52,581 nt of DNA from Chiloscyllium plagiosum (taxonomy: Eukaryota), in the NCBI RefSeq assembly GCF_004010195.1, contig NC_057719.1:32303153-32355733 (forward strand). The letters are read 5' to 3'. Position numbers and translations under genes: made by a program. The notes beneath the pieces were generated by a model. It searched no databases, was not told the DNA's origin, and saw nothing but the letters and a program-made list of their open reading frames with translations. This document shows, piece by piece, positions 2,069 through 9,258 of this stretch. Position 1 is the stretch's first letter. The number at the start of each line of letters is the position of its first letter.

Positions 2069-4047
2069 CTATTCATAATTCTCAATAATTTTAAAAATAG
2101 TTATGGAAGAGGATAAGCCTTTCATAAAAGTTAAAGCTCTTAATTGAAGTAAGGCAAATTTTAATGGTATGAGATAATAACTTTCAAAAGTTGATTGGAA
2201 TAGACTGTTTGCGGGTAAAAAAAAATGACTGACAAGTGGTAGGTTTTTGAAAGTGTGATCATGAGAGTTCAGAGGCATTATGTTCTTGTTATAGTGAAAG
2301 GTAAGGCTGGTAGGTTTTGGGAACAATGGATGGATAAAGGTATTGAGGTTCTAGTCAAGAATAATAAATAATCACATATTAGATATAGACAACTGGGATC
2401 AAATTAATTTCTTGAAAATTATAAAGAGTGTAGGGGCATTCTTAAGAGGGAAATCAGGAAGGCAAAGAGGGGATTTGAAATAGTCTTGACAGGTAAAGTT
2501 AAGGATAATCCCAAGAGATTCCATGAGTACAATAAGAGCACAAGAGCAACTAGAGAGAGATTGGGCCTCTCAGACATCAATGTGGTCCTGTTCATGTTGA
2601 AACTCAAGAGCTGGGAGAGATATTCAATGAATATTTTGTGTCAGTTTTTATTGTGGAAAATAAATGGAGGCTTGAGAACCCTGGGAAATAAATACTGATG
2701 TTTAGAAAACAGGTCACATTACAGAACAGGATGTGCTGGAGGTCTTAGAAAACATAAAGGTGGATGTCTCCGGGAGCTGATCAAGTGCATCCCAAGATGT
2801 TGTGGGACATTAGGAAGGAAATTACAGCCCCTTAGCAGAAATATTTATGTCATCTATAACCATGGTGAGGTGCTGGAGGACAGGAGGGTGGCTAATGTTG
2901 CACCTTTATTTAAGAAATGTTCTAAGGAGAAGGCTGGGAAATATTGACCTGTGAGTCTAACATTTGGTGGTGGGTAAATCATTGGAGGGGATTCTAAAAG
3001 GTAGAATTTACATGCATTTGGAGAGGCAAGGAATGATTAAGGATAGGTGGGGATTAGTTTAGTGGTGGCATGGTTTTATGCAAGGGAAATTGTGTCTCAC
3101 AAACTTAATTGAGTTTTTTGAGGAAGTAGACAAAAGGATTGACGAGGGCAGAGTGGTAGCAGTTATTTACTTGGACTTTAGTGAAGCCTTTGACAAGGTT
3201 CCACATAATAGACTAATTAGTAAAATTAGATCACATGGGATTCAGGGTGACCTCGCCAATTGGATATAAAATTGGCTAGATAATAAGCAACAGAGGATGC
3301 TGGTGGAGGGTTGTTTGTCAGACTGGAGGCCTGTGATCTGCAGTGTTCCACAGGGATCAGTGCTGAGTACTCTTTTGTTTCTCATTTGCATAAATGTTTT
3401 GGATTAGAATTTGGTTACTAAGTTTGCATATGACACTGAGGTTGGTGGTATTGTGGTCTGTGAAGAAGGCCATCTAAGAAAGAAGACATCTTGATCAATT
3501 GAGTCAATGGACTGAGGAATGGCAGGAGTTTACTTTGGATAAATGTGAGATTTTGTGTTTTTATAAAATAAACAAGGGCAGGACTTGTACAACTAAATGG
3601 TAGGGACCTGGGTAGTGTTGTAGAACAGAGATCTAATGGTTCAAGCACATAATTCCTTAAAATTTGTATCACAGGTAGATAGGATGGTTAAGAAGGCATT
3701 TAGCATGCTTGCCTTCATTGCTCAGAGTCTTGAGTATAGGAGTTGTCTTGTCATGTTGAGGTCACACAGGATATTGGTGAGGCCTCTTCTGGAGTACTTT
3801 GTGCAGTTCTGGTTGTCCTGTTATAGGAAGGATATTATTAAACTGCAGAAGGTTCAGGAAAGACTTAGCAGGATGTTGCCAGGAATGGAGGGTTTGAGTT
3901 ATAAAAATAGGCTAGAACATCTTTCACTGGAGTATGAGGTTAAGGAGTGACCTTATAGAGGTTTATAAAATCATAAGGGGTATAGACAAGGTGACTAGCA
4001 AAGGTCTTTTCTCCCCCCAAGGTGGGGCGTTCAACACTAGGGTACAT
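2069..4047 (+). mobile_element. Degenerate CR1 LINE ORF2 fragment (linker and RT), 3' end missing
   Basis: ORF pieces CLTNLIEFFEEV/YLDFSEAFDKVPH (3078-3269) and LVRPLLEYFVQFW (3636-3950). Similarity stops at actagggtacatgg (~4047), before the usual CR1 3'UTR. Confidence 0.92.
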
Positions 4048-4378
4048 GGGGATGTGACTACAGATTTTAATGGTTGTTGGTCTCTGACCGGTGCCTGTGT
4101 AGTCACCTTTGTAATCGTTTCTACGTATTTTATCAATTGCAAAGTTGGTCGAACCTCCACGTGGTTCCTCCCGGAAACTACCTGTAAGAGGAAGCTCCAA
4201 ACAGGTGTGGTTTTACTTGTGTAGAGGTTATATTAGCATGGTTTTATCATTAGCTTTATCACTAATTTTACCTTTGGTTTTACCTTTGGTTTTAACCAAT
4301 GCTGTATGCCACTGACCGTTTTACTATTTCCTTCTGTTGTAAGAGCATTTACTCTGATCAGGTCGGCCAATACGACCA
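4048..4378 (+). ncRNA. HDV-like self-cleaving ribozyme at the R2 5' end
   Basis: P2 TGGTCGA (4146-4152) pairs with T(A)CGACCA (4371-4378). P3 ACC/GGT encloses L3 TCCACGT (4153-4165). P1 3' strand TCCTCCC (4166-4172), P1.1 GG (4173-4174). P4 base ACCTG..AGAG (4180-4190) pairs with CTCT..CAGGT (4352-4363). J4/2 is GCCAA with the putative catalytic C at 4367. The P1 5' strand near 4048-4055 pairs only partly. Confidence 0.8.
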
Positions 4379-4839
4379 GAGAAAAGATACGAGACGGCTG
4401 GTGACCACTTGGTCGATGATAGAAACCTAGTTTTGGAAGGGGCGATTATGTCTAACTCCAAAATTTTCCGGTTGGGTGGGAGACCGGGAAAATAACCGCC
4501 CCGCACGGTTGTTATTGGCGGCACTGTGTGCTAAGTGTTAGCCAAACATGGACTAGACCATCCATTTCAACACAAATGGAAGAGACCCTAAGAGTTACTC
4601 CGGCATGGCTGCCCTCTGGTAGGCACGAGGAAGCCAATAAGAAAGTCCAGAGTAATCAGGACCAAATTCGAATGGAAGGACTTAGAGAAGGCCCCTCTAG
4701 AGTCCTGGTTCGTTTAACAGCCGGACAATTTCTAATTTGATTTTAGTCAAATTGGAGAACTAGAGAGCAACAAGGAGAGGAGTGAGAGTAGGATTATTCA
4801 TCTGGTTATTAATGAAGAAGAAAAATTGGAGGAGATGAT

Positions 4840-7800
4840 AGAATACCTGTTAGACAATTTTGTGTAAATTTTGTAACAATTTATAATACTATGGGAATGT
4901 TTAGGAAACATCTAAAATTATGTAAAGGGATTAAAACGATAAGAATTAAATGTGGCTGGGAAGATTATTATTATTATTATTATTAAAATTTACAACACGA
5001 AAGGCACGTGCATCCCAATTTGAGAAACTTTAAGAGGAAAAAAGAGAATAAAGAAAATAAAGATCTCTCGGATAAAGGAGAGAAAGGTAAAAGAGGTATA
5101 TGGTCTAATTCTGAAATTAAAATGTTACAACAATTAGAATTGGAATTGAGGTTGTAAAAATATCAATAAAACTTATTGCGGAAAAATTGGAAACTAAAAT
5201 AGCAAAACAGATTTCCGATAAAAGGAGATTGTTAACTTTATCGTGACTCTTACTATGTTTATTTATGGGCATAAGTCAGGAAGTGGTCCTTTGTAGTAAT
5301 AAAAGTGAGAGTAGTAATCTGGATATAGATACAGTAATAGAGGAGATAGGAACTGGTGAGCGTAATCGCCAAGGTAATAATATTAATAGGTCACTAACAG
5401 AATTAGTAGAGATAATAGAGGATAAAATAAGTAAGAGTAAACGTATAATGAAGGACTACGATAGCATCATGGATATGATAGTTCGTAAATTAGAGAATAA
5501 TAATGAGAATAATAAGAAACAAGTAGTTACTGAGCAGAAGGTTAGTGGACAAGAATGTAGTAAGAAGGTAAATAACGCGAAGAGAAGATACAGTCAAAAA
5601 AGAAAGTTCAAAGAAGTCCAGGTTTTATATAAAAATAAAAGGCAATATTTAGCTAGAACCTTGATGGGGGCTCTGGCTAAGTGTGAATGCCTGCTCAGAA
5701 AGGAATTAGAGGAATATTTTAGAGATTATCTAACTCTAACGATAAAAGTAATCTAAAGAGGCTTTGCTAAATACAGAGGTCAGATTGAGGGATCAATATG
5801 CGACATACTGACTAGTCCTATAACGGTAGACATAAATCAGGCCGTGAAGGCGATGGATGTTAAAACTGTGGCGGGACCAGATTGGATGACGCTGAAAGAA
5901 ATAATTAGAATATTTAACAAAGATAATATGAGAATTCCTAAAATATTTACCATTTGGGTAAAAACAGGTAAAATCCCGGATAAACTTAAAATAAGTAGAA
6001 CCGTGTTGATTCCCAAAGTAAGTGATGAGGATGGATTAAAAGATATCAATAACTGGAGACCAATCACAATAGGTCCAATTATGCTTAGGCTGTTTACAAA
6101 AATTATAGCCAATAGATTAAGTAGTTATAAATTTAAATAAAAGGCAAAAAGGTTTTATGGCAGGTGTGGCAGGGTGTGAAGAAAACATTAAAATCCTGGA
6201 GAATATCATGAATGCAGCTAAGAAGAATAAAATTGATCTAGCAGTGGTACTCTTAGACCTGGCGAAAGCCTTTGATATTGTAGGACATAAATTAATAATA
6301 AATGCCCTTCGAAGAATTCAGCTCCCCCAACATTTATTAAATTAATTACAAATTTGTATGAAAATAATTTTACTCAGATTAAAGGTTTTAATTGTAAAAC
6401 TGATAAGATTAAAATTTTAAGAGGGGTTAAACAAGGTGATGCGTTATCACCAATTCTTTTTAATATAGTTATAGACCCCCTTATAACCACTATTGAAGAA
6501 GGAAAAAGAGGATTATTTTTAGGTCAAGATAAAGAGAGCAATCATTGTGCAACTCTAGCATTTGCTGATGGTATAGCTTTAATTAGCCAATCCTACGATG
6601 GAATGGCATACAATTTAAAACTAGTTGAGAAATTTTGTAGTAATACGGGGATGGAGGTCAATATAAGAAAAACAAAAGGGTTCTACTTTACTTATAAAAA
6701 CAAAACGTTTTTATATATAATGACAAGGCAAATTGGAAATTTAATAAGGGAAACATGCAATTCATAGATCCAGGAAGTACTGATAAATATTTAGGAGCAA
6801 AGATAGACCCATGGATTGGTGTACGCCAATCAGATTGGGAAAACCAACTAGGTATATAGATTGAAAATCTTAAAAGATCCCTTTTAAAACCTGTTCAGAA
6901 ATTGGAACTTTTAAAAATTTATTTTATCCCTAGATGATATTATCTAATTTTATCAGAGGTATCATTAAACTATCTTAATAAACTTGATAACATAATTAAA
7001 AATGCAATTAAAGAAATATTACATCTCCCATAATCCATCACGGATGGCTATTATATACAAAGTCCCAGGATGGCAGCCTTGCGTTGAACAGACTGTCAAC
7101 ACTTATTCCAGTTGCAATTTTGAGGAAATATGAGATGCTATACAAATCCGAGGATGAAATCTTACATGCCTCATTTTCATTCGAGGGTGGTATATAGCTA
7201 CGAAAATGCACAAGCTCAGTAAATTCAAAGTATTAGAAAATATCTGGAATCCAAATAGAAATCGACAGTTGGGAGAATCTGATATTATTGAGGAAGAGAA
7301 CGAGAGAGTAGAAGAATTTAGCAATAAGAACTATGCTAACTGGAGATCCATGGAACTTCAGCAATGGATGGCCTTGCCCTGTCAAGGGGCTGGTACCCAT
7401 TATTTTAAGAATGATGATATCTCTAATAACTGGTTGATGAAAATACAACACATGAAGATGTCCAAAGTAATAAATCCAATTTTATTACGAACGAATTTTT
7501 ATCCAACATGGGCGTCGCTAGTGTATGGAAGGCCTTTTAATATCAGGAGTTGTCGGAGATGTAATGATAATTCTGAAACATTGCGCATATCGCAGGATGG
7601 TGTCCCTATGTTAAAAATGAGGATAAAAAGATACAATAGAGTAAGGGAAGAGCTAACAAAGTTTATCAAGATAAAAGGATGGATAATATACATGGAACCA
7701 CGTATTAAAGATAATACCGGGAAATTATGGATATCGGACTTAACCTGATTTTCCTTTTTAAAAATTATCGTGGATGATGGGGTGATCAGAACGGATTAAC

Positions 7801-8115
7801 AAATTAACTCGCTCAAACAAGCCTGGGAAGGAAAGAAAGATCAATATAAACATCTGGAAAAGTAAATAATGGACCTTTCAAAAGGAACTAAAATATCCTT
7901 TTTATGGTTTTGTGATGGGATCTCAAAGAAAATGGTTTGGAAAGAACAATGAACTAATGAAAGACCTTGGGATAGAAAGATTTAAATCTCTTGCTCAGAA
8001 CATTGCAAACCTTGTTTTATCTTTGACTCTTGAGCTTTTAAGGATTTTTATGGACTCTTGGGATTCTCCAGTTGACAAAATTAATAACTTTTTAATTTTG
8101 TTTGTTTTTAAATAA
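4840..8115 (+). pseudogene. Frameshifted R2 polyprotein (ZF-Myb-RT-RLE)
   Basis: Collinear ORF fragments 5265-5756, 5844-6140, 6157-6345, 6354-6767, 7206-7748 and 7912-8115. The catalytic FADD reads FADG, and there are several stops and frameshifts. Confidence 0.88.
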
Positions 8116-9258
8116 AGTTTTAGGTTAATTTAAATTAGCATTGATTTTAACTATATATTAAAATTTTAATGTTTTAAGTGCCATTTTGTGACTAGTCACA
8201 GACTCAGTTCTCGGCTTTCACATTGAGTTTCCTTTCACTTCATTTCTTGACAGTTCATTATTTCTCCTTCCCCCAAATGGACTGACAAGCCCCTCACTCA
8301 ACTTTTATTAACTCACTGACTTTTACATTCCCAAATCTTTCTAGTTTTGAACAGCCATCCAGAATGTTTCCTGCTCATGTAACTCTCCAATATGTCAGTC
8401 TCTCCATGGAAATGGTAATTGTCTCAAACCAGAGACAGTTGATGCTGCTCATGCCTTGGATGGACTCCCCCATTGTCCATAAATGACCAATGTCCAAGCA
8501 GTTCACTCTTCTCCTAGTGTCTGCTGATCATTTCAGTCTCACCAGCTATGTCAAGTTGAGCACTAATGGGCTGTTTCTCAGTTTTCTAACTGAGAATAGC
8601 CAGAAATATTAGTCTGCCTTTATTGACTGTACCTTTTATGCCATACTGACCAGCTAATGCTACCCTTTCTGACTATGAACTAATACCCACTCACATGCAA
8701 ATACCCGCAACCATGCACAGTGCACTGGAATGATGTGACGTTCTGCTGATGTAGTCCCAAACAGTTGCTTGGAACTCTTCTTCACCTCATTTGTGACATC
8801 ACCTTCAAGAAAGAAGATTGATATTGACATTGTGACCAACTCTCTCTGCTTCACCGTTCTTCTTGGAGCTCCCTCTGTTCACAACTAGTCACAGACACAT
8901 CAGAACTGTTCATGGATACTTGCATGAAGTAACACTCTGCCCCCACGTCACCCTTAGCTGCAGGCTAACATGATGAAACTCCTCTCACCTGCAGTGCCCC
9001 CATCTCTTTTGATGATCAATACAGTTAGCAAAGGCAATCTTCCTGCAGCTCATCTCGGCCTTCTGGCATTTACAAACGTCTTTCTTCAAAGTACAGAAAT
9101 ACCACTGCTCTCTAAAGGTCCAGTCACATTTCCCTGTTCCAGTTCAAGATCTAGCATTGTCACTGGGAGGCTCTAGCTGTGAGTGCCATTTTGTATTTGT
9201 AATGCAGCACACATCCCTGACTGGGCTAGGGCCTCCTTTGTGAGTCTACAAATGTGTC

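What the first reader, a model, noticed from the sequence alone, without database searches (positions are those of the whole stretch)
4048..8186. Full-length R2-type retrotransposon outside 28S rDNA in a shark-like genome
Seen: the complete domain order ZF, ZF, Myb, RT, CCHC, RLE. The left flank is a CR1 LINE, and the right flank lacks the 28S sequence TAGCCAAATGCC that follows canonical R2 insertions. Known: R2 elements are usually strictly 28S-specific, and this architecture with several zinc fingers typifies clade A. From memory, KNINKLIAE..TK.AKQISDKRRLL and LKDINNWRPITIG closely resemble avian clade-A R2 proteins used for genome engineering. Inference: this is either a rare off-target insertion of a chondrichthyan R2 or a member of an R2 lineage that has lost or changed target specificity.
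Basis: partly seen in the sequence, partly recalled or inferred. Interest (0 to 1): 0.85.

Follow-up and report, generated by a model that had tools for sequence, protein, structure and literature searches.

The report
Shark R2 fossil outside ribosomal DNA
This is a broken copy of the jumping gene R2 sitting outside the ribosomal genes where R2 normally lands; dozens of sister copies in the same genome do the same at short look-alike sites while others sit at the normal site, so it is likely a preserved record of aiming errors rather than a lineage that gave up its target.

Summary
The element is real but not full-length: a dead three-zinc-finger (lineage A) R2 at 4048-8176 with a zinc-finger deletion and its last ~290 bases missing, so its right flank says nothing about targeting. 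Its family is already catalogued as a 28S element (R2-1_CPl/R2-1_CPu, PMC13188248). What I did not find in print is the population: 34 independent non-28S 3' junctions beside 20 28S-linked ones; 20 of 34 start with TAG (2.1 expected); 25 of 32 are 5'-complete; four insertions share one 28S-like site in a host repeat. 28S-linked copies occur throughout the copy tree, including the window's subfamily. The family carries a self-contained HDV-like ribozyme whose first helix likely derives from a captured 28S duplicate. A second R2 family with the ordinary 28S-dependent ribozyme is dispersed too, so the internal ribozyme is not needed for dispersal. Best reading: leaky 28S targeting whose errors persist while rDNA copies turn over (0.75). 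The scan noted off-target R2 copies in this genome before (e1-8030535, e1-7858572).

The parts
2400..4047 (+). Host repeat (CR1-like LINE, name recalled) into which the element inserted; about 10 bases of the host site upstream of the inferred nick are missing
   Evidence: 53 blast pieces among held loci; L033 and L114 sit at the same host site; start coordinate approximate
4048..8176 (+). Degenerate lineage-A R2 retrotransposon, 5' end nearly complete (two G missing), 3' end truncated by about 290 bases
4048..4378 (+). Predicted HDV-like ribozyme: P1 remnant 4048-4052, hairpins 4054-4106 and 4107-4144, P2 4146-4151 with 4373-4378, P3/L3 4153-4165, P1' 4166-4172, GG 4173-4174, putative catalytic C 4367
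   Evidence: alignment and pair counts over sisters; in this copy P1 keeps only 5 of 7 pairs
4863..4923 (+). ZnF3 (C-x2-C...H-x3-C; last ligand Cys instead of the usual His), frameshifted
4954..4991 (+). AT-rich microsatellite replacing about 160 bases (most of ZnF2, first half of ZnF1)
4993..5016 (+). Last part of ZnF1 (HERHVH)
5101..5230 (+). Myb domain, frameshifted
   Evidence: weak Pfam Myb hits (E 0.006-0.04, below curated cut-off) in intact sisters; aligned to R2Tg
5850..6950 (+). Reverse transcriptase in at least four frames; catalytic motif FADG at 6561-6572
   Evidence: (RVT_1 E 7.6e-15 for 6291-6764); limits approximate
7551..7602 (+). CCHC zinc knuckle, split by a frameshift
7700..8061 (+). 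Restriction-like endonuclease remains (WISDL at 7728) and end of the reading frame
   Evidence: weak nuclease-family hits in sister L214
8062..8176 (+). First part of the 3' UTR; the rest and the true 3' junction are absent

Best explanation
The window holds a dead, 3'-truncated R2 copy outside rDNA, likely one of many off-target insertions made by a family that kept its home in 28S rDNA. Shown: sisters lie both at the canonical 28S site and at dozens of unrelated sites whose downstream flank begins with TAG(C), without target duplications and with 0-27 bases of target lost. Inferred: source elements in rDNA are transcribed with the rRNA, the element's own ribozyme cuts at its first G, and the R2 protein now and then nicks and primes at a near-match of the 28S site (protein reading of upstream DNA, pairing of a few 28S bases on the RNA tail, or both). 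Inferred: on-target copies are purged by rDNA turnover and are under-assembled, while off-target copies stay and decay, so the assembly over-represents errors. Inferred: the first 29 bases are an old duplicate of 28S -28..-1 that took over the first ribozyme helix after a compensatory change.
For: Six full-length copies with 28S on both sides (L110, L121, L124, L128, L214, L261). L214 is identical to published R2-1_CPl over the ORF start, ORF length (915 aa) and 5' junction shown. 3' motif in 34 independent non-28S junctions: TAG 20 (null 2.1), TAGC 14 (0.4), TAGCC 9 (0.1), 0 of 2000 null sets as high. Empty copies of host repeats carry the motif natively in the few testable cases (L122, L035, L048). 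Four insertions from different subfamilies share one host-repeat site whose 24 empty copies match the 28S target at 15.9 of 33 positions against a window background of 8.2, 99th percentile 14. 28S-linked copies are spread over the copy tree; L049 is in the window's group, L298 nests in the one group that looked all-dispersed. A second R2 family, whose P1' matches 28S -28, also has off-target copies that begin at 28S -28 (12 of 27 pattern matches). Avian R2 gives about 0.1-1% off-target insertions sharing mainly the bases just downstream of the nick (PMC11371274, passages). A 2026 review warns that unequal loss from rDNA and from the rest of the genome can mislead such counts (PMC13580325, passages). 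Only 5 exact empty targets are assembled.
Against: Non-28S junctions outnumber 28S-linked ones in my sample (34 to 20), more than a 0.1-1% error rate gives without strong differential loss, and I cannot measure that loss. Upstream likeness to 28S is weak overall (10.2 against 9.2 of 25 bases, p 0.001, n 31) and only at the 95th percentile for the CR1-like site of the window itself (11-12 of 33, n 3). 14 of 34 junctions lack a perfect TAG. L298 sits on a long branch (0.31), so the 10-copy group has only uncertain 28S support. Two dispersed copies keep frames of 1196 and 1130 aa, so recent dispersal is not rare. The 28S-duplicate origin of the 5' end is significant in some subfamilies (p<1/3000 in 4 of 10 copies) but not in the window copy (p 0.09).
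Confidence: 0.75

Rival explanations
1. The family has a truly loosened target choice and some dispersed copies act as sources: the self-contained ribozyme would let host read-through transcripts be cut into full-length R2 RNA anywhere, making rDNA optional.
For: P1' pairs 7 of 7 with the element's own G-run in 14 of 37 parsed copies and never 7 of 7 with 28S -28. None of 31 dispersed 5' flanks carries the 28S leader. 25 of 32 non-28S 3'-anchored copies reach the first 250 bases. A 10-copy group (97/100) has no 28S-linked member in the 3' tree. ZnF3 ends in Cys, unlike the other vertebrate R2s aligned.
Against: The second family with a 28S-dependent ribozyme disperses as well. No 3' transduction from a dispersed copy was seen; the one shared-flank cluster is a segmental duplication. 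No fully intact dispersed copy was found. ZnF3 contacts RNA and backbone, not target bases (10.1101/2024.11.11.623112, passages), and deleting ZF3-2 keeps target fidelity (PMC11204384, passages).
Confidence: 0.16
2. The dispersed copies were not inserted by the R2 endonuclease but captured from R2 or R2-28S RNA or DNA by another LINE or by break repair.
For: At least 11 chromosomal copies are 5'-truncated R2 pieces with 28S tails (about 30 to over 1400 bases), unrelated 5' flanks and no target duplication, so such capture happens in this genome.
Against: It does not explain ends at the exact R2 3' terminus followed by native TAG(C), nor four hits at one 28S-like site. The captured class is all truncated whereas the motif class is mostly 5'-complete.
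Confidence: 0.06
3. The window element is not an R2 (NeSL/Utopia, Hero, R4) or its junctions are misassembled.
For: My protein tree held no NeSL, Utopia, Hero or R4 sequence; the assembly is fragmented (101,977 contigs).
Against: Sisters sit at the exact R2 site in 28S, carry three fingers plus Myb and score E 6e-187 against R2Tg; both junctions are bridged in independent runs.
Confidence: 0.03

Closest known systems
R2-1_CPl and R2-1_CPu (bamboo-shark R2, Table S2 of PMC13188248; rows seen in the spreadsheet supplement, cells cut at 400 characters)
   Same: Same family: L214 equals R2-1_CPl in the part shown; same 5' UTR start, ribozyme core and Cys-ended ZnF3
   Different: The passages and rows read list them only as 28S-inserted elements; no dispersed population, target motif or ribozyme analysis seen. 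In the R2-1_CPu row the G-run is filed under upstream 28S, whereas dispersed copies show it belongs to the element
Avian and turtle lineage-A R2 (R2Tg 9dou, 9nl3, 9nl2)
   Same: ZnF3-ZnF2-ZnF1-Myb-RT-CCHC-RLE; E 6e-187 to 5e-161; off-target sites with a short downstream match (PMC11371274)
   Different: Zebra finch R2 is predicted to cut at 28S -28 (PMC3774820, passages); this family is predicted to cut at its own first base; ZnF3 is CCHC
Sea squirt R2 B and C; model of Fig. 8d in Eickbush et al. 2013 (PMC3774820, section 18 read)
   Same: A 28S duplicate at the 5' end takes over P1 after a compensatory change in P1'
   Different: Here in a vertebrate lineage-A family, with off-target copies of two families in one genome showing the two kinds of RNA 5' end
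R2NS-1_SMed and R2NS-1_CSi, non-specific R2 of flatworms (PMC5035012, parts 1-3 of 5 read); R2Bm copies outside 28S (Xiong et al. 1988, title only, seen in a reference list)
   Same: R2 copies outside rDNA
   Different: The flatworm families are clade D and C and reported as without specificity; this family still occupies 28S and keeps a target motif

Membership tests
R2, lineage A | Single ORF with Myb, RT, CCHC knuckle and restriction-like endonuclease | tested here: met
   (broken in the window, long frames in L214, L215, L218)
R2, lineage A | Three N-terminal fingers (CCHH, CCHC, CCHH) | tested here: met
   Three fingers in sisters; ZnF3 ends in Cys, a variant; the window copy has lost most of ZnF2 and half of ZnF1
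R2, lineage A | RT groups with vertebrate three-finger R2s | tested here: met
   (quick tree, 44 rows): window pieces with own copies 100, shark group 98, vertebrate group 93 (below the starred level); no NeSL/Hero/R4 rows
R2, lineage A | Family inserts at the canonical 28S site | tested here: met
   six copies with 28S on both sides; 20 distinct 28S-linked 3' ends
R2, lineage A | HDV-like ribozyme at the 5' end | tested here: met
   92.9% of 588 cells paired against at most 44% for slid controls; compensatory P2 change; cleavage itself not testable here
R2, lineage A | Endonuclease and TPRT activity on 28S DNA | not testable with these tools
   needs biochemistry
Non-specific R2 (R2NS type) | No insertion at 28S and no shared target motif | tested here: not met
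Retargeted R2 (R8/R9 type) | One new strict target shared by all copies | tested here: not met
   34 unrelated flanks; hotspots of only 3-4 copies
NeSL/Utopia, Hero, R4 | RT groups with these clades | not tested
   no such sequences were in hand; Utopia is said to lack Myb (PMC13188248, section 5), which this family has

The most novel reading that the evidence does not exclude
A vertebrate lineage-A R2 caught halfway out of rDNA: it captured the 28S strand of its ribozyme, became able to mature its RNA at any locus, loosened its target to a short 28S-like motif, and ran part of its history from dispersed source copies.
Probability: 0.16. Interest if true: 0.8.

Novelty: new variant of a known kind. 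Interest (0 to 1): 0.5.

Why it matters
Lineage-A R2 proteins are being developed for gene insertion because of their site specificity, and a recent review calls the specific/non-specific split an oversimplification that genome snapshots may distort. This genome offers dozens of natural germline off-target sites of a vertebrate lineage-A R2, with a measurable motif and repeat hotspots that can be put straight into nicking assays. Because off-target copies preserve the RNA 5' end, the two R2 families here also give an in-genome test of where each ribozyme cuts and of the published model for how the cut site moves from 28S into the element. The window copy itself is an ordinary dead fossil.

Tried and rejected
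Palindrome at 8187-8200 and the 8-base match to the 5' end as a target duplication or new target: rejected, the element's true end is missing and no sister has this flank. 3' transduction from dispersed copy L116: rejected, the cluster shares 5' and 3' flanks, a segmental duplication. Target duplications or poly(A) around 28S-tailed copies: none. Internal ribozyme as the cause of dispersal: weakened by the second family. In organism B, run X13 holds the family at over 90% identity but no listed contig bridges the window's junctions: no verdict on orthology. Expression: no RNA holder listed; RNA run X22 gave 0 reads on 6% of the run, no test. Plain folding of 4046-4185 gave z -1.79 and cannot show the pseudoknot. 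No CR1 outgroup was found for the protein tree and the careful search did not finish. One search compared the 5' end with 28S in the wrong register; repeated. Xiong et al. 1988 is not held; Fell et al. 2025 did not appear in the listing and is known only through PMC13580325.
Full report
Observation. The + strand from 4048 holds a broken R2-type reading frame. A 127-aa piece finds three vertebrate R2 chains at E 1e-24 to 4e-21, ahead of silkmoth R2 (5e-6) and L1. Rfam finds no rRNA in the window. Against long frames of sister copies the window switches frame at least eight times, holds stops, and reads FADG in the RT motif. Homology with sisters begins at 4048 and stops at 8176; sisters continue about 290 bases to a common end. 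The copy is therefore 3'-truncated and its right flank is not the insertion junction. About 160 bases covering most of ZnF2 and half of ZnF1 are replaced by a short AT-rich repeat. Contigs of two studies bridge the left (X1, 0 differences) and right (X2) junctions, so misassembly is unlikely.

The family. An 801-base RT query gave 42 matches at 74-98% identity from 40 scored of 123 candidates; a 25-base ribozyme-core pattern gave 48 matches with 0 in the control. Sisters with long frames show ZnF3, ZnF2, ZnF1 and Myb; ZnF3 ends in Cys where the aligned bird, fish and other homologs have His. L215 scores E 6e-187 against R2Tg. In a quick RT tree of 44 rows (39 of the 120 homologs, four own copies, the window pieces) the window joins the own copies (100) inside a shark group (98) among vertebrate three-finger R2s (93); NeSL, Utopia, Hero and R4 were not represented. 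L214, which has at least 1.5 kb of 28S unit on both sides, equals published R2-1_CPl in ORF start, ORF length and 5' junction as far as the table shows. The family is thus known as a 28S element.

Where copies sit. Clustering 107 complete 3' ends by flank gave 34 independent non-28S junctions (tandem ends and one duplicate cluster member set aside, L174 added by hand) and 26 rows of 28S-linked ends, which I reduce by coordinates to 20 loci. Of the 34, 20 show TAG within -1 to +3 of the end (null 2.1), 14 TAGC (0.4), 9 TAGCC (0.1). Upstream likeness to 28S is weak but present (10.2 against 9.2 of 25, p 0.001, n 31). For 24 copies with both ends, empty host sites were found for four non-28S ones: no target duplication, 0-27 bases lost upstream in three, unclear in L126; where visible, the motif is native to the host repeat. 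Four insertions from different subfamilies (L042, L115/L037, L215, L220) hit one site of an abundant repeat; 24 empty copies of it match the 28S target at 15.9 of 33 positions, against 8.2 for the window background. The window copy, L033 and L114 share one site in a CR1-like repeat, a weaker match (11-12 of 33, n 3). Of 32 non-28S copies found by their 3' end and with the 5' side in hand, 25 reach the first 250 bases. A separate class of at least 11 chromosomal copies are 5'-truncated pieces with 28S tails and unrelated 5' flanks, without duplications; they look like captured fragments of R2-filled rDNA and record on-target insertions. Only 5 exact empty targets are assembled, so arrays are under-represented.

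History. Trees of 49 and 54 copies form a ladder of subfamilies with 28S-linked copies in most branches; L049 lies in the window's 17-copy group. One 10-copy group had no 28S-linked member; in a 5' tree the 28S-flanked L298 nests inside it, on a long branch. Most end branches are 0.02-0.06, the window's 0.12. Two dispersed copies keep frames of 1196 and 1130 aa but lack the endonuclease end.

Ribozyme. The 5' 330 bases fit an HDV-like fold: 92.9% of 588 cells pair in 17 copies, against at most 44% when partners are slid (related sequences inflate the shuffle test), and P2 shows a compensatory change across about 220 bases. P1' pairs 7 of 7 with the element's own G-run in 14 of 37 parsed copies and at most 6 of 7 with 28S -28; the others have lost part or all of the G-run or carry point changes. 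The first 29 bases resemble 28S -28..-1 (p<1/3000 in 4 of 10 copies tested, 0.002-0.04 in five, 0.09 in the window). In the table rows of stingray, chimaera, zebra shark and catshark R2, P1' keeps the G that pairs with 28S (read by eye). This fits the published model in which a 28S duplicate takes over P1 (PMC3774820, section 18). Cleavage is predicted, not shown.

Control. An earlier scan note pointed to off-target R2s that start at 28S -28. I tested it: 12 of 27 matches to the 28S leader have non-28S sequence upstream and R2-like sequence downstream (for four of them only the 5' motifs, no protein match); four fetched ones are 4.3-kb elements 86-89% alike and distinct from the window's family. 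So dispersal does not need the internal ribozyme, and the two families start exactly where their P1' predicts.

Mechanism and verdict. The most likely reading (0.75) is a 28S-resident family whose occasional near-match insertions persist while rDNA copies turn over. Avian R2 in human cells gives 0.1-1% off-target insertions that share mainly the bases downstream of the nick (PMC11371274, passages), as here. A truly loosened lineage with dispersed sources is not excluded (0.16). I found no report of dispersed shark R2 copies in searches (open-licence full text only). Papers seen: PMC13188248 passages, section 5 and 9 of the Table S2 rows for cartilaginous fish (its 15 PDF supplements unread and could bear on this claim); PMC5035012 parts 1-3 of 5; PMC3774820 passages and section 18; PMC11371274, PMC11204384, PMC13580325 and 10.1101/2024.11.11.623112 passages only. 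The labels CR1 and the HDV helix names are recalled. Novelty: new variant of a known kind; interest 0.5.

Noticed in passing
L127, L130, L139, L140, L141, L143 (unplaced contigs of G000): Head-to-tail tandem R2 copies; the upstream copy's 3' end joins a 17-base repeat of the element's start, and L143 ends in 28S. Could be insertion at the 5' junction of a resident copy or template jumping.
   Followed up: partly
L302-L305 (G000:C10, C15, C27, C48): Second lineage-A R2 family, 4.3 kb, off-target copies beginning with the 28S -28 leader; some other leader matches (L287, L288, L291, L292) have different 5' UTRs and may be further families.
   Followed up: partly
L116, L253-L257 (G000:C8 and unplaced): One R2 copy amplified inside a larger duplicated unit, with different internal deletions in the duplicates.
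   Followed up: partly
window 8177-9194: A 13-base direct repeat (8177-8189 and 9182-9194) brackets about 1 kb right after the break, as a target duplication of another insertion would; the enclosed DNA had almost no match among held loci. It holds a 14-base palindrome at 8187-8200.
   Followed up: no
L215 (G000:C20), L218 (G000:C16): Dispersed copies with reading frames of 1196 and 1130 aa, candidates for recent, possibly polymorphic insertions.
   Followed up: partly
L282, L285, L296: 28S target followed directly by a short (about 60-base) 3' end of a related R2, some with degenerate 28S downstream.
   Followed up: no
L051 (G000:C7): A 28S fragment of about 130 bases that begins just upstream of the R2 site, without R2.
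   Followed up: no
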